From a virus (lineage: Duplodnaviria > Caudoviricetes), in the IMG/VR virus record IMGVR_UViG_3300017913_001218, positions 1 to 27,968 of that record: a stretch of DNA of 27,968 nt. One strand, written 5' to 3'. Numbering within the stretch: position 1 is the first letter of the stretch; each line of letters starts with the position of its first letter. Both the position numbers and the translations under genes were made by a program. The notes under the pieces were generated by a model. It searched no databases, was not told the origin of the DNA, and worked only from the letters and a program-made list of their open reading frames with translations. Of the stretch, positions 1,527 to 12,038 are shown in pieces.

Positions 1527-1556
1527 TGACAGGTTCGAGTCCCGTCACTCCCGCCA
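1527..1556 (+). other. attP: attP core: 3' end of tRNA-Asp (T arm, acceptor strand, CCA)
   Basis: GGTTCGAGTCCCGTCACTCCCGCCA at 1532-1556; core inverted repeat TGACAGG-[TTCGAGT]-CCCGTCA centred on the T loop; no 5' tRNA half; lies next to the integrase operon. Confidence 0.85.
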
Positions 1557-1600: not shown

Positions 1601-1622
1601 CTGGGTCACAGATGGGTCACAA
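1601..1622 (+). repeat. Right (P') arm-type integrase binding repeats of attP
   Basis: Tandem 11-mers CTGGGTCACAG and ATGGGTCACAA. Confidence 0.8.
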
Positions 1623-1651
1623 GAAATCATGGGTGGGTGCGGGATTTTACC

Positions 1652-1695
1652 TTGACCTTGACGGAAACCGTCACTATATTTGACGTATAAGGTTA
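1652..1695 (+). promoter_or_regulatory. Sigma70-type promoter of the int operon with two operators
   Basis: TTGACC-17 bp-TATATT; inverted repeat TGACGG-AAA-CCGTCA (1659-1673) in the spacer; TGACGTATAAGGTTA at 1681-1695. Confidence 0.7.
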
Positions 1696-1962: not shown

Positions 1963-3081
1963 ATGCATATCGTAGTCAAAGAAATCAAATCACGCGCAAA
2001 GGCAGGAAAGGCTGCCTTCTGCGTAGACACACGCACCCTGGTCGATGGCGGCAAGCAGCGCTTCTTCGCAACCAGGCAACAGGCTCAGGCCTACGCTGAC
2101 CAGCTCGTATCTGAGCTGGCGCCTAACCTGGGCGAAAGCTGGGACTGGACGTTCCAGCAGCTGCGCGACCATTTCATTGCACACGTTGAGCGCGCCTACG
2201 AAGACGGCGACGTGACACGTTCTAGCCTGATTGAGAAACGCCGGCACAGCCAGGCGTTTATCGACCTGAAGCTCAGCAACAAGGCGCTGGCTAAATCGAA
2301 GGTGCGCGACCTGACCACTGGCCAGATCCGGCTGCAGCTGATGGACGAGCTGAAGGCCGGCCGCTCTGTCAAAACTGTTAAGAACATCATGGGCAATGTC
2401 CGCGTGATGCTCGACTACGCTATTGATTCGGGCTGCCGCAACAGCAACCCAGCGCTGGGCGTTAAGGCAAAAGGCATGAAGACGCAGGACACTGGCAAAG
2501 CACAGCGCATCCAGCCGGCAGTGATTGAGACTATTATTGCACATATGCCCGAGGCTTGGGCGCTACGCGCTCGCTTTGCTGCGACTACTGGCCTGCGCCA
2601 GGGTGAGCAACGCGCCCTGCTGTGGTCAGACATCGACCTGGATGCCGGCTATGTGTACGTCACCAAGGCTGTAAAGCACCGCGCCGAGGTAGGCGACACT
2701 AAGACTGCCAAGGGTAACCGTAAGGTGCCACTTACCCCTGACGTTAAACAGCTGCTGCAAGAGCTCTATCTGCGCGCTGGGCGGCCATCAGCTGGTCAGC
2801 TGGTGTTCCCTAGCACAACCGGCAACGTGCTCTCTGATAGCCGTTTCCTGGCCGCTCTGCACAAGGCCTGTGATGCAGCTGGTGTTGAGCGCATCCGCTG
2901 GCATGACCTTCGCCATTACTATGCCAGCCGTATCCTGCAGGCGTTCAACGGTGACTGGTGGACAGTGACTAACCTGATGGGTCATGAAAGCATTAAGACA
3001 ACCACCAACATCTATGGCCATTGGCTCGAAAGCGAAGAGCAGGACGCCAAGATTGCTGACGCTATCTCGGGGGCGTTCTAA
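1963..3081 (+). CDS. int: Tyrosine recombinase (phage integrase)
   Basis: TGLRQGE (R), KTAKGNR (K), HDLRH (HxxR), LMGH, IYGH (Y); NPA motif after the core-binding domain. Confidence 0.95.
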   Translation: MHIVVKEIKSRAKAGKAAFCVDTRTLVDGGKQRFFATRQQAQAYADQLVSELAPNLGESWDWTFQQLRDHFIAHVERAYEDGDVTRSSLIEKRRHSQAFIDLKLSNKALAKSKVRDLTTGQIRLQLMDELKAGRSVKTVKNIMGNVRVMLDYAIDSGCRNSNPALGVKAKGMKTQDTGKAQRIQPAVIETIIAHMPEAWALRARFAATTGLRQGEQRALLWSDIDLDAGYVYVTKAVKHRAEVGDTKTAKGNRKVPLTPDVKQLLQELYLRAGRPSAGQLVFPSTTGNVLSDSRFLAALHKACDAAGVERIRWHDLRHYYASRILQAFNGDWWTVTNLMGHESIKTTTNIYGHWLESEEQDAKIADAISGAF

Positions 3082-3963: not shown

Positions 3964-4339
3964 TACCGCCCCCTTTGGCTGCCTCATAGCTTTGAGCCGG
4001 TGCAGCTGCAGTTGTTGGTGGCGGCGTGTAGCCCTGCGGGTCGTTGACCATCAGCTGAAACTGCATCACCTTGGGGTAGTCCCGCACATCTTCGACGCCT
4101 GGCACCCGCTGCGATACCGTGACACCGAGCTCGACGCCGGCATCAGCCAGCTGCTTGTGCAAGTCTTCGCAGATTTGCTTCTGCTCGGGGGTCATTGGCG
4201 TGAAGCGCTTCGCCTGGTCATCCCATTCAGTGCGAAACTGAATAAAGGCTATGCCCCGGTATTCGATGTGTTCGCCGGTCTCGTCCATCATCTGGACGTT
4301 GCCTCTCATCTTAAATTTAGAACGTGAAAAATGCGGCAT
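3953..4339 (-). CDS. Hypothetical protein, possibly ssDNA-binding
   Basis: Follows the SSAP gene; beta-rich N-terminus with a flexible Pro/Ala/Gly tail ending in Trp; function is positional inference. Confidence 0.6.
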   Translation of the reverse strand: MPHFSRSKFKMRGNVQMMDETGEHIEYRGIAFIQFRTEWDDQAKRFTPMTPEQKQICEDLHKQLADAGVELGVTVSQRVPGVEDVRDYPKVMQFQLMVNDPQGYTPPPTTAAAPAQSYEAAKGGGNGW

Positions 4340-5010
4340 TATCTTACTCCTGAATTTAGTTCATCATATTTGGCGCCGTAGTGGTCTTTGAGCTCAGCGC
4401 ATAGCTCTCTGTCAGCCTCGAAAAGGTCATGTCTCGCCTTCTCGGTACTGCTTGCCCAGCGGTGCAAAGCATTGATGTCTTTCTTTTCATCAATGCGTCT
4501 TTTTTCCTGGTCTACCCAGTCCCGCCAGGGGTTATCGTCAAAGGGGATATCATCCAGTGCCGGTGGCGCTGGCGTGTCTTTCGGCGGGTCAGCTGATGGC
4601 TGCGGCGCCCCGCCCATGTTTTCTGGCCGTTCTTCTTTGAAGGCGTCTGCTTCATCTTCTGAATAAACAAAACCGGCCACGCCAATCAGCTTGAGAATCA
4701 CCCGGTCTTTCGCGCGCTTCTCTGCCATAGCATAGGGATAGCTGTTCTTATTGTTGTAAGGCACAGCTTCGCCAATCGACCATTCGACGGCATCCCCTAG
4801 CCGGCCAGACACTTGCATGACAACTGTCTTTTTCTCGGCGTTAGCTTCAATGATAACCGGCGGGTCAAAAGTGATGCCCAGGTGAGCAGCGACCTGTTCC
4901 AAAGCCTTGTGCAGCGCAACCGGGGTGCCGTGGCAATCCCAGGTGGCCTGCTCTCTTGTGAGACCTATGTCTTTGAAGATCTCAATTAGTTTTTTAGGCA
5001 AGTCAGCCAT
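4339..5010 (-). CDS. Single-strand annealing protein (Rad52/Sak/Redbeta-like)
   Basis: AMAEKRAKDRVILKLIGVAGFVYSEDEAD resembles the SSAP core motif; Pro-rich linker and helical C-terminal domain; same operon as a nuclease. Confidence 0.7.
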   Translation of the reverse strand: MADLPKKLIEIFKDIGLTREQATWDCHGTPVALHKALEQVAAHLGITFDPPVIIEANAEKKTVVMQVSGRLGDAVEWSIGEAVPYNNKNSYPYAMAEKRAKDRVILKLIGVAGFVYSEDEADAFKEERPENMGGAPQPSADPPKDTPAPPALDDIPFDDNPWRDWVDQEKRRIDEKKDINALHRWASSTEKARHDLFEADRELCAELKDHYGAKYDELNSGVR

Positions 5011-5353: not shown

Positions 5354-5463
5354 TACCAAGCCCCCTCTGGTGCAAGCACCCACAATAAAAAGTAAAGCTC
5401 AGCCATGAGCAGGGCGAAGGCTAAGCCCCCGATTATTTCTTTAATCCATTCCCATTTTGTCAT
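5353..5463 (-). CDS. 36-aa single-pass membrane peptide (not in ORF track)
   Basis: MTKWEWIKEIIGGLAFALLMAELYFLLWVLAPEGAW; TAATG overlaps at both ends fill the gap exactly. Confidence 0.75.
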   Translation of the reverse strand: MTKWEWIKEIIGGLAFALLMAELYFLLWVLAPEGAW

Positions 5464-6401
5464 TACACACTCCATATTTTCCGGGCTTCAGCTAGGTATG
5501 TTTCAGGTTCCTGCCAGTAGATTGCCTGCCAGTCAGGCGCGACTAGACCCAGCAGCTCGTCTTTCGTGCTGGCAGCTCGCAGGATGTTTTCGGTGGTTTT
5601 GCACTGCAGGATGATGTCGTTGAGCACGTCCTGCAGAAAGTCGTCGCGCAGCTCGGGCGCGTTCTCGGGCGTGAACACCCGGTAGTCTGTGGCGTTGGCG
5701 TACACCAGGAAAGGTGGACGGTGGCCGTTCAATGCCCAGAATCCACAAGACTGGTACACGTTGTTCATGTCGAACATGCCGGTCAGTGACGTAGGCAAAC
5801 TGCCGGCCTGCCAACCTGATTTGGCTCTGGAGCTCGGGCGTGACCATTTTGTTTTCAGGTCACCCCGGTTGGCATAGTCCGGGCGCGTGTCATACGGCAC
5901 CGCCAGGCCGGGCATGAGACCCAGCAGCTGCTTCTCACCCAAAATCCTGTTCTCGCTAGCCATAGCCTCTTGCAGGCCTTTTATGGCGTGTTCTGCGACC
6001 AGGGGCAGCTCTTCCAGATATTTATCTTTCCGGGCTGCGTCGTCTTCATCTTTGGGTTTGTAGTTTTGCAGCTGCTCGACGCCGGCATGTGTGGCGTCAG
6101 CCAGGCTGAGTGTCTCGCCGTTCTCATCCATGACCAGGTGTAGGTCAGTGATTGTCTGGGTAGCCTTGCCGGCTTCCATGTTGGCTGAGCTGCGCCTGTC
6201 GTTCAGGCGGTACAGAACATCTTTGGCTCGCAGCTTGTCAGCGTCTGAGGCATCAGTGTCCCGCAATACATCAAAGGCCGCGCCGATTAGCGGCCTCACA
6301 TGCGTTTTTTCAAAAAGGTTTTTCGCTCGGTCTTTTGAGCGAGGATTGGAATGGGTACGCACATTGTGGCGCGTTGCCCAGTCCGGCACGTCATGAAGCA
6401 T
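5463..6401 (-). CDS. PD-(D/E)xK superfamily exonuclease
   Basis: E..TRPDY..GDLKT motif and a downstream YQ helix; likely start MLHDVP at 6401 after GGGAGA (alternative start 6416). Confidence 0.7.
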   Translation of the reverse strand: MLHDVPDWATRHNVRTHSNPRSKDRAKNLFEKTHVRPLIGAAFDVLRDTDASDADKLRAKDVLYRLNDRRSSANMEAGKATQTITDLHLVMDENGETLSLADATHAGVEQLQNYKPKDEDDAARKDKYLEELPLVAEHAIKGLQEAMASENRILGEKQLLGLMPGLAVPYDTRPDYANRGDLKTKWSRPSSRAKSGWQAGSLPTSLTGMFDMNNVYQSCGFWALNGHRPPFLVYANATDYRVFTPENAPELRDDFLQDVLNDIILQCKTTENILRAASTKDELLGLVAPDWQAIYWQEPETYLAEARKIWSV

Positions 6402-6430
6402 GATAGTCTCTCCCATACTGTTATGGGATA

Positions 6431-9497: not shown

Positions 9498-9882
9498 GGC
9501 GAGCATCACAGAGCTCGACGAGCTGTTCATGGAAGCTGCTGAGACTGAGCGGAAGCTGCCAGCTGCTATTCGCAAGCAGAAGATGAGCTCATGGCCTGAG
9601 TATGTCCAGGAATGGTCAGCTTACGGCTATCACGCCTTCGAGGTGCCTATCATCAAGGCTACGCCTGTTCAGATAACCAGGTATGAGATAGCGCTTGAGC
9701 TTGGCATTACGAAGATGGATCAGGATGACAGGCGCCTTGTCTGGGCTGTAGCTCACTCAGCTGCGTTCAGAGAACGTGGCCCAGCTTGGTCTAAGCTGGC
9801 ACGGATTCTTGGATTGAACGACCCCAGGATAGTCAAGCGAAGGTATCAGGATGCCCTGGTCAGGCTGTATTATCAGCTGTGA
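9484..9882 (+). CDS. Late transcription regulator candidate (DUF6362-like, sigma region 4-like HTH)
   Basis: EAAETERKLP..WPEY..AYG..DRRLVWAVA..WSKLARILG..RRYQDAL; Q-like position directly upstream of terS. Confidence 0.7.
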   Translation: MNVGRASITELDELFMEAAETERKLPAAIRKQKMSSWPEYVQEWSAYGYHAFEVPIIKATPVQITRYEIALELGITKMDQDDRRLVWAVAHSAAFRERGPAWSKLARILGLNDPRIVKRRYQDALVRLYYQL

Positions 9883-10071
9883 TGACGTAATATGTTAAGC
9901 CCTATTGACGCCAATGCACCGAATGTAGTATCAATATTTATAGAATGGCACAACATATGGCTATTCATTTTTCCTCCCTTAACTGACCTTACGCAGCTTG
10001 GTTGCCAAACACAGCCAGCTGCACCAGTAACTAGCAGGCTCATCGTTGCACGGCGGTGGGCCTGCGCTTTT
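9883..10071 (+). promoter_or_regulatory. Late promoter/leader with operator and two hairpins
   Basis: Operator at 9883-9897; TTGACG at 9905-9910 (the -10 is ambiguous); hairpins at 9993-10022 and 10034-10065, the second followed by TTTT. Confidence 0.5.
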
Positions 10072-10081
10072 ATGGATTATC

Positions 10082-10495
10082 ATGGCGAAGATACGAGTAA
10101 CGAAAAAGCAGATGGACATCATCTGTGAGCGGATAGCTGAAGGCACAAGCCTGACGCGGATCTGCAACGAAGACAGTGCGCTGCCTTCGTGGCGTACCGT
10201 GCTGCGCTGGGTGCAAGAGAATGAAGAGGCTTACACGCAGTATCGTGTAGCCAGGACATTGCAGTGTGAAGCAATGCGAGACCAAATCATTGACCTGGTC
10301 GAAGCACCATTGCCTGACGACCCGAAGCTAGCAATGGCTGAGGTGCAACGTCGTAGGCTAGAGGCAGACCACAAGGACAAGCACATCAGGCAGATGCAGC
10401 CTCTTGGTATCAGAGACAAGGCAGAGGACAACAAGCAAAGCAGCGGGACAATCACGTTGACCTGGGGCAATGCAGAGCCGGCAACAGTAGGCTGA
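10082..10495 (+). CDS. terS: Terminase small subunit (Sf6 gp1-like)
   Basis: IICERIAEGTSLTRIC..LPSWRTVLRWV..QYRVAR..VQRRRL pattern; upstream of terL. Confidence 0.85.
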   Translation: MAKIRVTKKQMDIICERIAEGTSLTRICNEDSALPSWRTVLRWVQENEEAYTQYRVARTLQCEAMRDQIIDLVEAPLPDDPKLAMAEVQRRRLEADHKDKHIRQMQPLGIRDKAEDNKQSSGTITLTWGNAEPATVG

Positions 10496-10587
10496 GATAT
10501 ATAAAAGGCTGGCTCTGTTGGCAGTGCTCGCGCGCACGAGGCAGGCCGGCTTTTGATTTTCACAGATTGATGCCAGGCTTGGCCAGC

Positions 10588-10662
10588 TTGTGACCGGGCT
10601 GTGACCTGGCAAGCTGGAGCCCTAGAAAAACATAGCGGTGGGCGCGGGATACAAGCCTGTCA
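10588..10662 (-). promoter_or_regulatory. Second integrase-type site (core plus arm pair), inverted relative to attP
   Basis: Minus strand: TGACAGG-CTTGTAT-CCCGCGC, 32 bp, CCAGGTCACAG CCCGGTCACAA; same layout as the attP core and P' arm. Confidence 0.6.
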
Positions 10663-10757
10663 GGGTGGGCAAAATCCTGAGCGGCACCCCCACCCACCCC
10701 AGACCAACCCGCCGGAATCTATAGCGTATATTACCTGAACATGAGCCTGTCTCTCAC

Positions 10758-12038
10758 ATGAACATTGAAATTCCCTACACGCCAAGACCAGGGCAGGCGC
10801 AGCTACACGGTGAGCTGCAGGCTAAGCGCTGGGGCGTCGTAGTCTGTCATCGTCGCTGGGGCAAGACGGTGATGGCCATTAATCACTTGCTCCGGGATGC
10901 TGTGCTAAACGGCAAGACTAACCCGCGCTTTGCTTACATAGCGCCTACCTATCGCCAGGCTAAGGCTGTGGCGTGGGATTATCTCAAGCAGTTTGCAGGG
11001 GCTGTGCCTATGGTGCGGTTCCATGAGACTGAGCTCCGGGCTGATTTGCCTAATGGGGCAAGGATACAGCTGCTGGGTGCTGAGAACCCTGACAGTCTGC
11101 GGGGCATCTATTTGGATGGCGCTGTGCTGGATGAGATGGCTGATATGCCGGAAAGTTTGTTTCCAGAGATTATCAGGCCGGCGCTAAGTGACCGTAAGGG
11201 CTGGGCGTTGTTCATTGGTACACCCAGGGGGCATAACGCCTTCTTTGATCTTTACACGGCTGCTGAGGGGCAGGACGACTGGCATACGTCGATATACCGG
11301 GCGAGTGAGACCGGGATACTGGACAGCGAGGAATTGGACGCTGCCAGGGCGATGATGACGCCAGACCAGTTTGAACAGGAATTTGAGTGCAGCTGGGTCG
11401 CTAATGTGCCTGGGGCTGTATTTGGTAAAGAGCTTCAAGAGATACAGGAAAAGGGGCGCATTGCTTCAGTTCCGTATGACCCAACCTGTAAGGTAGATAC
11501 CTGGTGGGATTTGGGCGTCGGTGACAGCACGGCTATTTGGTTTACGCAAAGTGTAGGCCGGGCGGTGCATGTCATAGATTTTTATGAGAACCGGGGCGAG
11601 GGGCTGCCTCATTACGCAAAGGTTCTTGCTGATAAAGATTATTTTTATGGGACGCATAACGCGCCGCATGACATTGAGGTCAGGGAATTAGGCTCTGGCA
11701 AAAGCAGGCGCGAGACTGCCTGGGATTTAGGAATAAATTTTAGGGTGGTTCCTAAGCTGCCTGTCGAGGATGGGCTTCATGCTGCACAGATGCTTATCCC
11801 GCGCTGCTGGTTTGACGCGGAGCTTTGCAAGCCAGGCCTTGAAGCGCTTAGGCAGTACCACAGAGCATATAACGAAAGGCTGCGGACGTTTAGGAACACG
11901 CCTGTCCATGACTGGTCGAGCCACGCTGCAGATGCTTTTCGGTATCTCGCGGTCGGTCTTAAAGAAAATACGCAGTATGACCGGCCACCACAGGCCATAG
12001 CTGACAGCAGCTACAACCCGCTGGGAGTAAGTTTGTAA
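10758..12038 (+). CDS. terL: Terminase large subunit
   Basis: Walker A HRRWGKT, LRG..VLDE Walker B, GTP coupling motif, WDLG..DSTA and HAADAFRY nuclease motifs. Confidence 0.95.
   Translation: MNIEIPYTPRPGQAQLHGELQAKRWGVVVCHRRWGKTVMAINHLLRDAVLNGKTNPRFAYIAPTYRQAKAVAWDYLKQFAGAVPMVRFHETELRADLPNGARIQLLGAENPDSLRGIYLDGAVLDEMADMPESLFPEIIRPALSDRKGWALFIGTPRGHNAFFDLYTAAEGQDDWHTSIYRASETGILDSEELDAARAMMTPDQFEQEFECSWVANVPGAVFGKELQEIQEKGRIASVPYDPTCKVDTWWDLGVGDSTAIWFTQSVGRAVHVIDFYENRGEGLPHYAKVLADKDYFYGTHNAPHDIEVRELGSGKSRRETAWDLGINFRVVPKLPVEDGLHAAQMLIPRCWFDAELCKPGLEALRQYHRAYNERLRTFRNTPVHDWSSHAADAFRYLAVGLKENTQYDRPPQAIADSSYNPLGVSL

What the first reader, a model, noticed from the sequence alone, without database searches (positions are those of the whole stretch)
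10588..10662. Cryptic second integrase site, inverted, between terS and terL
Seen: attP reads TGACAGG-TTCGAGT-CCCGTCA-53 bp-CTGGGTCACAG-ATGGGTCACAA. The minus strand here reads TGACAGG-CTTGTAT-CCCGCGC-32 bp-CCAGGTCACAG-CCCGGTCACAA. The two share the same first core half-site, 7-bp spacer length, 11-bp arm tandem and orientation; the core-to-arm distance differs by 21 bp (two helical turns) and the intervening DNA is unrelated. Only one arm is present (attL-like) and the overlap matches at 3 of 7 positions. I found no other GGTCACA tandem outside attP. Known: lambda-family Int bridges arm and core sites in a phase-dependent way and normally needs overlap identity, though Tn916/CTnDOT integrases tolerate mismatch; Flp inversion amplifies the yeast 2-micron plasmid. 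Inference, with alternatives: (a) Int bound next to the packaging region couples excision to terL expression or pac cleavage; (b) Int inverts the 9.1-kb early block, or makes a stalled Holliday junction, switching theta replication to concatemer synthesis (the origin candidate is about 1.3 kb away and replication genes are missing); (c) an alternative attachment site or Int decoy. I know of no described system with this layout.
Basis: partly seen in the sequence, partly recalled or inferred. Interest (0 to 1): 0.88.

Follow-up and report, generated by a model that had tools for sequence, protein, structure and literature searches.

The report
Second integrase site replaces host dif
A marine phage keeps, between its two DNA-packaging genes, a second copy of its integrase's docking-and-crossover signal that changes in step with the integrase in related phages and is swapped for a look-alike of the host's chromosome-untangling (dif) site in relatives without an integrase, so it likely lets the phage recombine its genome with itself, probably to close incoming DNA into a circle.

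Summary
The site is real. The terS-terL gap of this HTVC010P-related podophage holds an arm tandem plus a core with a 7-bp spacer (0 of 3000 shuffles). In 21 phages with both sites, the tandem matches the phage's own attP arm motif (19 of 21 automatically, p<=5e-6). The motif switches with integrase residue 32 (Q: TCAC, R: TGCC). Core spacing is fixed (45 of 47), but the overlap varies (26 types) and never equals attP's (0 of 19). No inversion junction was found, and one relative has the site in direct orientation, so inversion with attP is unlikely. Relatives without the tandem carry an alphaproteobacterial dif-like site in the same slot (9 of 13 rows, never both); 11 of 11 near-complete dif-bearing genomes lack a tyrosine integrase. 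Best reading: a self-by-self recombination site, likely circularising terminally redundant DNA as P1 loxP does (recalled; 0.5). Binding, recombination and the pac position are untested. The scan noted integrase-arm sites and dif sites beside terminases before, on other DNA; their exchange in one slot was not in the notes I saw.

The parts
10588..10609 (-). Two direct 11-bp arm-type repeats (GGTCACA core), same motif as this phage's attP arms
   Evidence: co-variation with attP arms and Int residue 32 in relatives
10610..10641 (.). 32-bp arm-to-core spacer of conserved length; no convincing IHF site
   Evidence: distance 42-43 nt in 45 of 47 unique sites; best match to the recalled IHF consensus 6 of 9, no enrichment over control
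10642..10662 (-). Core-type site: two inverted half-sites around a 7-bp overlap (TGACAGG CTTGTAT CCCGCGC)
10525..10543 (.). Conserved GC-rich palindrome followed by a T-rich tract, present in both arm-type and dif-type relatives; candidate packaging-recognition element (untested)
10686..10703 (+). Conserved C-rich tract upstream of terL, also in cultured pelagiphages; role unknown
10046..10495 (+). terS, Sf6-like small terminase
   Evidence: phrog_1482 E 4e-21; PF20901 E 2e-22
10758..12038 (+). terL; best cultured hits are HTVC010P-type pelagiphages (57-58% identity)
1527..1556 (+). attP core (1527-1547) within the 3' end of tRNA-Asp; the overlap is the T-loop
   Evidence: the same 3' end lies in a whole tRNA-Asp(gtc) in L230; attR-like junction L335
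1395..1435 (.). attP left arm: four GGTCACA copies, one inverted
1601..1622 (+). attP right arm tandem; an IHF-like site (1559-1571) and a terminator hairpin (1560-1591) lie between it and the core
1637..1657 (+). Extra core-like half-site overlapping the -35 box (1652) of the promoter-like site upstream of the int operon; likely autorepression (inferred)
1963..3081 (+). Tyrosine integrase with an N-terminal three-strand-plus-helix domain; residue 32 (codon 2056-2058, Q) and residue 16 (2008-2010, K) track the arm motif

Best explanation
The terS-terL gap holds a second arm-plus-core site matching the phage's own integrase, which likely recombines with another copy of itself rather than with attP, most likely to close the incoming linear genome into a circle. 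Shown by sequence: (1) the arm tandem follows each phage's attP arms and integrase residues 32 and 16; (2) a two-half core with a 7-bp overlap sits at a fixed helical phase; (3) the overlap drifts freely and never equals attP's; (4) relatives with no integrase gene carry a dif-like XerCD site in this slot instead. Inferred: integrase binds and cuts here. Packaging would start at a pac site in or just after the Sf6-like terS and run towards terL, so first-headful genomes would carry the site twice in direct repeat. Early integrase (or host XerCD in dif-type phages) would join the two identical copies, giving the circle needed for replication or integration. The mismatched overlap would keep the site from reacting with attP.
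For: Own-motif tandem in 19 of 21 linked phages by an automatic rule; the two misses carry it. Cross matches 40 of 420; best of 200,000 permutations was 10. At least seven motif classes, including HTVC028P and L224 with unrelated integrases. Residue 32 is Q in 13 of 13 TCAC rows and R in 12 of 12 TGCC rows, some near-duplicates. Sister integrases switch motif at both sites: window/L004, L063/L074, L088/L092. Core at 42-43 nt in 45 of 47 unique sites against 0.15 hits at other offsets. 26 overlaps among 47 sites; 0 of 19 identical to own attP. Tandem versus dif in 80 rows: 67 tandem only, 9 dif only, 4 neither, 0 both. The dif-like arms match Rhizobiales dif in PMC2731167 (passage). 11 of 11 dif-bearing records at least 90% complete have no PF00589 match; 10 of 10 arm-type contigs of 33 kb or more have an integrase. 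59 of 79 dif-pattern viral loci lie within 1 kb of a terminase gene, across several terminase families. Site orientation varies, which self-by-self recombination tolerates. TerS is Sf6-like; Sf6 and P22 are headful packagers, with pac inside terS for P22 (PMC7672466 passages).
Against: Neither the pac position, the packaging direction nor any terminal redundancy was shown; no read-level test was obtained. In headful series only some virions would carry two copies (once in four events for SPP1, PMC7672466). The phage encodes a PD-(D/E)XK-like nuclease and a weak Sak-like lead, which could circularise by homologous recombination instead. No crossover hot spot at the core was seen in the mosaic analysis. 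No IHF enrichment between arm and core. Variable dif spacers do not exclude integration: gokushovirus dif motifs vary and still integrate (PMC7062461 passages). Pelagibacter ubique is reported to lack dif/Xer, so integrase-less pelagiphages such as HTVC010P do not clearly fit. 4 of 80 rows have neither element, and two arm-type records (84% and 87% complete) show no integrase. The rows are related and not independent.
Confidence: 0.5

Rival explanations
1. Same chemistry, different job: the site recombines with itself to resolve replication dimers into monomers (like plasmid cer, psi or dif sites) or to build concatemers for packaging.
For: All the self-by-self evidence applies. dif's normal role is dimer resolution (PMC2731167). 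Three dif-pattern loci lie beside a plasmid-type replication gene.
Against: Dimer resolution needs no link to terminase genes, yet 59 of 79 dif-pattern loci and all arm-type sites found lie there.
Confidence: 0.2
2. Integrase bound here is regulatory or architectural: it represses terL or guides or blocks terminase at pac, coupling packaging to excision.
For: The site lies about 100 bp upstream of terL among conserved elements. Integrases repress promoters through arm sites (KplE1, PMC2951348 abstract and section 8). Tn916 integrase was reported to lend specificity to the oriT relaxase, a result the citing paper says needs confirming (PMC6499999 passage).
Against: KplE1 repression did not need the core site, whereas here a two-half core with an exact 7-bp spacer is kept. 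No plus-strand sigma-70-like promoter in 9850-10800. It does not explain the dif replacement.
Confidence: 0.17
3. Alternative attachment site or integrase decoy; in dif-type relatives the slot would serve XerCD-mediated integration at the host dif.
For: Phage dif motifs with variable spacers integrate through XerCD (PMC7062461). The site looks derived from the right half of attP in G010 (overlap 6 of 7, right half 7 of 7).
Against: Arm-type phages already have a complete attP with a tRNA core and an attR-like junction. The second site has one arm and 26 different overlaps. Integration here would split terS from terL. A decoy needs no phased core.
Confidence: 0.07
4. Integrase inverts the 9.1-kb early block, or makes a stalled junction, between attP and this site.
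For: The site is inverted relative to attP in 20 of 21 linked phages. Overlap identity to attP averages 3.2 of 7, above the 1.75 expected by chance, with position 7 often shared.
Against: Lambda recombination needs 7 bp of overlap identity (PMC1807965 passage); 0 of 19 have it. 0 junctions in 42 viral and 15 metagenome hits and 0 in a direct search. Direct orientation in L224. dif-type phages have no attP partner.
Confidence: 0.04
5. Neutral relic or chance match.
For: None beyond its attL-like origin.
Against: It switches in step with attP and the integrase between sister phages; 0 of 3000 shuffles.
Confidence: 0.02

Closest known systems
Lambda-type attL (core, bending site, P' arms) and the attL-by-attL 'bent-L' pathway of lambda integrase (site layout from PMC1807965 passage; the bent-L pathway is recalled, its single mention was not displayed)
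   Same: Heterobivalent tyrosine integrase; one arm tandem plus a core with a 7-bp overlap in the same helical phase as attP.
   Different: A separate natural site 9.1 kb from attP in the free phage genome, with its own overlap and a spacer two or three turns shorter; kept under selection, whereas bent-L is a laboratory pathway (recalled).
Phage P1 loxP/Cre cyclisation and dimer resolution (recalled; searches gave no supporting passage)
   Same: A site-specific recombination site near the packaging genes, proposed to be duplicated in the terminal redundancy and used with itself.
   Different: No dedicated Cre-like gene was seen in this partial record; the integrating enzyme itself would be used through arm sites, and relatives replace it with a host XerCD site.
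dif/XerCD of Alphaproteobacteria and Xer-exploiting elements such as CTX phage and gokushoviruses (PMC2731167, PMC3025954, PMC7062461; passages)
   Same: Relatives carry two 11-bp arms with a 6-bp centre that match Rhizobiales dif.
   Different: The window has no dif at this place; the dif-type relatives are tailed dsDNA phages with the site at the terminase genes, and integration is not shown.
Integrase autorepression in KplE1 (PMC2951348; abstract and section 8) and Tn916 integrase at oriT (PMC6499999; passage)
   Same: An integrase acting through its DNA sites outside plain integration.
   Different: The KplE1 sites are attL itself and the core is dispensable; here the site is separate and keeps a complete core.
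Flp/FRT inversion of the yeast 2-micron plasmid (recalled)
   Same: Two related recombinase sites in inverted orientation in most genomes.
   Different: The two overlaps differ in 19 of 19 phages, and the orientation is direct in one.

Membership tests
Heterobivalent tyrosine-integrase site (attL-like) | Arm repeats of the cognate integrase's motif | tested here: met
Heterobivalent tyrosine-integrase site (attL-like) | Two inverted core half-sites around a 7-bp overlap | tested here: met
   the pattern was used to pick the core, and the fixed distance is the independent support
Heterobivalent tyrosine-integrase site (attL-like) | Arm and core in helical phase | tested here: met
   distances 35-36 at the second site versus 45, 56-58, 68-69 and 79 at attP
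Heterobivalent tyrosine-integrase site (attL-like) | IHF site between core and arm | tested here: inconclusive
   6 of 9 in the window, no enrichment over control; attP scores 8 of 9 (consensus recalled)
Heterobivalent tyrosine-integrase site (attL-like) | Integrase N-terminus has the arm-binding fold | tested here: inconclusive
   model has three strands and a helix, residue 32 starts strand 3; no significant structure or sequence match
Heterobivalent tyrosine-integrase site (attL-like) | Integrase binds and cleaves the site | not testable with these tools
   needs purified protein
Recombination partner of attP (true attL, or Flp-type inversion site) | Overlap identical to the partner's | tested here: not met
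   0 of 19
Recombination partner of attP (true attL, or Flp-type inversion site) | Recombinant junctions exist | tested here: not met
   0 of 57 pattern hits and 0 direct hits in assembled contigs; contigs drop rare forms
P1 loxP-type cyclisation site | Site lies in the terminal redundancy downstream of pac | not testable with these tools
   no read data obtained; only the Sf6-like TerS points to headful packaging
P1 loxP-type cyclisation site | Dedicated arm-less recombinase | tested here: not met
   the only tyrosine recombinase among the ORFs scanned is the arm-domain integrase; the record is partial
dif/XerCD site | 11-bp XerC arm, 6-bp centre, 11-bp XerD arm (window) | tested here: not met
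   no dif pattern in the window's terS-terL gap
dif/XerCD site | Same feature in integrase-less relatives | tested here: met
dif/XerCD site | FtsK-orienting motif aimed at the site | tested here: not met
   0 of 13 non-tandem rows and 1 of 67 tandem rows on the one strand checked (motif recalled)

The most novel reading that the evidence does not exclude
A large group of marine podophages needs a site-specific recombination step at the packaging start to circularise its genome. Temperate members use their own integrase as a Cre-like enzyme at a second, one-armed site, lytic members borrow host XerCD, and the two cassettes are interchangeable.
Probability: 0.45. Interest if true: 0.9.

Novelty: new variant of a known kind. 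Interest (0 to 1): 0.8.

Why it matters
Phage integrases are taken to act only at att sites, for integration and excision. A second, selected site at the packaging genes would give them a job in the lytic cycle, and its exchange with dif would link two recombination systems to one unsolved step: how these abundant marine phages circularise or resolve their DNA. It is testable now, because cultured HTVC028P, whose integration was verified (PMC8477408), has the arm tandem upstream of terL. The natural switches (residue 32 Q or R, residue 16 W or other, against the arm motif) also give a simple candidate recognition code for arm-binding domains.

Tried and rejected
Inversion junctions: none. Crossover hot spot at the core: not seen; rank correlations between neighbouring segments were 0.14-0.50, with 0.24 across the core, and only 2 discordant pairs of 990; inconclusive. 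IHF between arm and core: no enrichment. FtsK-orienting motif: absent. Overlap as a tRNA anticodon loop: dropped, because the flanks do not pair and most relatives do not fit. Structure match for the N-terminal domain: nothing significant; the wider fold search never ran. Prophages in genome collections: only two phage contigs in MAG bins, so the host is unidentified. Xer-like inverted repeats upstream of terL in cultured integrase-less pelagiphages: seen by eye but with 6-8 bp centres in AT-rich DNA, no chance control, and the host is reported to lack dif/Xer; not counted. Contig ends cluster just after terS (8 of 80; many of the 46) but fall at scattered places, often near homopolymer tracts; not counted as genome ends. 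A binder other than integrase was considered because integrases 94% alike have different motifs; set aside once residue 32 tracked the motif. I did not test TerS or other proteins for co-variation. No read-level evidence was obtained. No supplementary files were read; those of PMC8477408 may bear on genome ends.

Full report
Setting. The window is a 27,968-base virus record of a podophage related to HTVC010P-type pelagiphages: TerL is 57-58% identical to theirs, and the tail-tube and head genes fit. It encodes a tyrosine integrase at 1963-3081. attP lies at about 1395-1622. Its core is the 3' end of tRNA-Asp, since the same end sits in a whole tRNA-Asp(gtc) gene in L230, and L335 looks like an attR junction. 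TerS belongs to the Sf6 family (PF20901). The host is unknown; an alphaproteobacterium is inferred from the dif type in relatives.

The observation. The arm tandem (10588-10609), the 32-bp spacer and the core (10642-10662) are as described. The tandem occurs three times in the window, twice at attP and once here, against 0.01 expected. It appeared in 0 of 3000 approximate dinucleotide shuffles of the DNA outside attP.

Co-variation with attP. I fetched 80 TerS loci and 21 integrase loci, 42 attP-pattern loci, further stretches and cultured genomes. For 21 phages both sites could be located; obvious duplicates and contigs lacking one site were left out. An automatic rule (commonest 7-mer around attP, then a tandem of it in the terS-terL gap) matched in 19 of 21. 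Cross pairs matched in 40 of 420, and the best of 200,000 permutations was 10. The two misses, L019 and L028, carry the GGTCACA tandem. Motif classes include GGTCACA, GTGCCAA, CATCACA, GGTCACT, CATGCCA, CGACAAC, GTTCGCA and TAGTGAA. The last is cultured HTVC028P, with an unrelated integrase whose tRNA-Asn integration was verified (PMC8477408 section 21). For L224 and HTVC028P I show the arm tandem only; a core was not established.

The binder is very likely the integrase. Integrases 94% identical can have different motifs, so I aligned them. Residue 32 is Q in 13 of 13 rows with a TCAC motif and R in 12 of 12 with TGCC. Some rows are near-duplicates, one motif (L053) comes from the second site only, and four rows were unknown or unalignable. 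All 6 rows with W at residue 16 have GC at the motif's 5' end, and L103 (W16, R32) has the combined motif GCATGCCA. On a tree of the integrase without its N-terminal domain the two classes need 4 changes, no fewer than shuffled labels often need. Sister pairs differ at both sites together: window/L004, L063/L074 and L088/L092, with L088 standing for L089. A model of the N-terminus has three strands and a helix, with residue 32 starting the third strand, the layout recalled for arm-binding domains. Structure and sequence searches found no significant match.

The core. Of 82 loci, 65 gave tandem plus core (47 unique). The 17 others were 9 dif-type, 4 with neither element, 3 with a tandem but no pattern match and 1 mis-parsed. 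The core pattern helped pick the site, so its conservation is partly built in. The independent support is distance: 42-43 nt from the arm in 45 of 47, against a mean of 0.15 hits at other offsets. Core-to-arm distances fall on an 11-bp ladder at both sites. The overlap takes 26 forms among 47 sites and matches the phage's own attP overlap at 1 to 6 of 7 positions, never 7, in 19 phages. In L057 and G010 the arm-side half also follows a changed attP half.

Not a partner of attP. Lambda recombination needs 7 bp of overlap identity (PMC1807965 passage). All 42 viral and 15 metagenome hits of a pattern with a free overlap had the tRNA overlap, with attP-type or tRNA left flanks where the flank was long enough to read. 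A direct search for the other junction found none. L224 has the arms in direct orientation. Assembled contigs can miss rare forms.

The slot is shared with dif. Relatives without the tandem carry GTCGCATAA-(6)-TTATGG at the same place, in either orientation. This matches Rhizobiales dif in PMC2731167 (passage). Among 80 rows (75 contigs; five tandem rows are re-fetches), 67 have the tandem only, 9 dif only, 4 neither and 0 both. 11 of 11 dif-bearing records at least 90% complete have no PF00589 match; three of them have a variant XerD arm. Serine recombinases were not searched. 10 of 10 arm-type contigs of 33 kb or more have an integrase; two arm-type records at 84% and 87% completeness show none. 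Within the window's terminase group the table is 10 against 2, Fisher p 0.015, on related genomes. The dif pattern hit 119 viral contigs with 45 different centres. Of the 79 new loci with flanks, 59 lie within 1 kb of a terminase gene and 25 between terS and terL, across several terminase families; the pattern came from this group and may favour kin. Earlier scan notes report Xer sites in prophages, one with an integrase (e1-6311789, e1-6776084; unchecked), so exclusivity may be local to this family.

Mechanism. A site with its own freely drifting overlap, either orientation, and a host resolution site as substitute is best read as recombining with an identical copy of itself. Its place beside an Sf6-like terS favours circularisation. 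P22 and Sf6 package by headfuls from a pac site, inside terS for P22, and give terminal redundancy (PMC7672466 passages). A site just downstream would then be present twice in first-headful genomes, as recalled for P1 loxP. A promoter-like site precedes the int operon, so early integrase is plausible. All of this is inference. Against it: pac and redundancy are unmapped; only part of the virions would benefit; the phage may have its own nuclease and annealing protein; no crossover hot spot or IHF enrichment was seen; variable dif spacers are compatible with integration (PMC7062461 passages); and Pelagibacter ubique is reported to lack dif/Xer. I put circularisation at 0.5, multimer control at 0.2, a regulatory or packaging role at 0.17, alternative attachment or decoy at 0.07, inversion at 0.04 and relic at 0.02. 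KplE1 repression did not need the core (PMC2951348 section 8), which weakens the purely regulatory reading.

Known systems and novelty. It is built like a one-armed lambda attL, and it would work like P1 loxP or a plasmid Xer site, but it fails membership as an attP partner and as a Cre system. Searches combining HTVC010P-type with integrase and attP, dif with XerCD and terminase, loxP with terminal redundancy, arm-type with terminase, phage termini and bent-L listed nothing that describes this layout. I saw listings and abstract starts only, and the library lacks most subscription journals. The passages I read of the HTVC010P-type paper do not mention it. PMC11769102, PMC3025954 and PMC6499999 were read as passages; no supplements were read. 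The scan's own notes reported integrase-arm sites beside terminases (e1-3503274, e1-9720072, e1-3496701) and dif beside terminases (e1-6336650, e1-5932390, e1-9700440, e1-306807) on other DNA. I opened them after forming this reading and do not count them as support.

Verdict. A real, selected second site of the phage's own integrase at the packaging genes, interchangeable with a host dif-like site. New variant of a known kind; interest 0.8; function inferred, and testable in a cultured phage.

Noticed in passing
window 10525-10662; L274-L318 downstream of terS: The cassette palindrome, AT-rich element, recombination site is mirror-imaged between two phage groups: the asymmetric AT element reads forward in 35 of 80 rows (0 reverse) of the window's group, and reverse in 24 of 41 rows (4 forward) of a second, dif-bearing group. 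It may move as a unit tied to packaging direction.
   Followed up: partly
window 1637-1657 and 1441-1449: Extra core-like half-sites beside the attP arms; the right one overlaps the -35 box of the int-operon promoter and changes with the core type in relatives.
   Followed up: partly
L307 versus L308-L311, just after terS: Sequences are nearly the same up to the outer edge of the dif-like site and unrelated after it, as a module swap at that site would give.
   Followed up: no
L340, around 1058: An attP with GGTCACA left arms and GGTGCCT right arms: a chimeric attP or an assembly chimera.
   Followed up: no
L335, 2501 to end: Phage left arm and core followed by non-phage DNA: attR-like junction at tRNA-Asp.
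   Followed up: no
L274-L318, end of terS: A perfect DnaA-box-like 9-mer (label recalled) at the end of terS, about 40 bp before the dif-like site.
   Followed up: no
L102 490-520 and L266-L271 upstream of terL: Cultured integrase-less pelagiphages have inverted repeats of the form GATAA-(6-8)-TTATC just before the C-rich tract, although their host is reported to lack dif/Xer.
   Followed up: partly
L063, L329 and others, between arm tandem and core: A CTGTGA-like element about 20 bp from the core is kept in many relatives whatever the arm class; possibly an accessory-protein site.
   Followed up: no
window 5463-6416 and 4339-5010 (minus): A PD-(D/E)XK-like nuclease next to a protein with a weak Sak-like lead: a possible phage recombination pair.
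   Followed up: partly
L106, L140, L163: The same dif pattern lies 480-500 bp from a plasmid-type replication gene (phrog_22671) in these larger records.
   Followed up: no
L075-L080: AT-richer relatives with a 12-bp or worn tandem and a different core-like repeat; no integrase region was available to test them.
   Followed up: no
L224, L225: Phage contigs of this group sit in bins labelled Pontibacterium and Methanobacteriota; probably misbinned.
   Followed up: no
   Followed up: no
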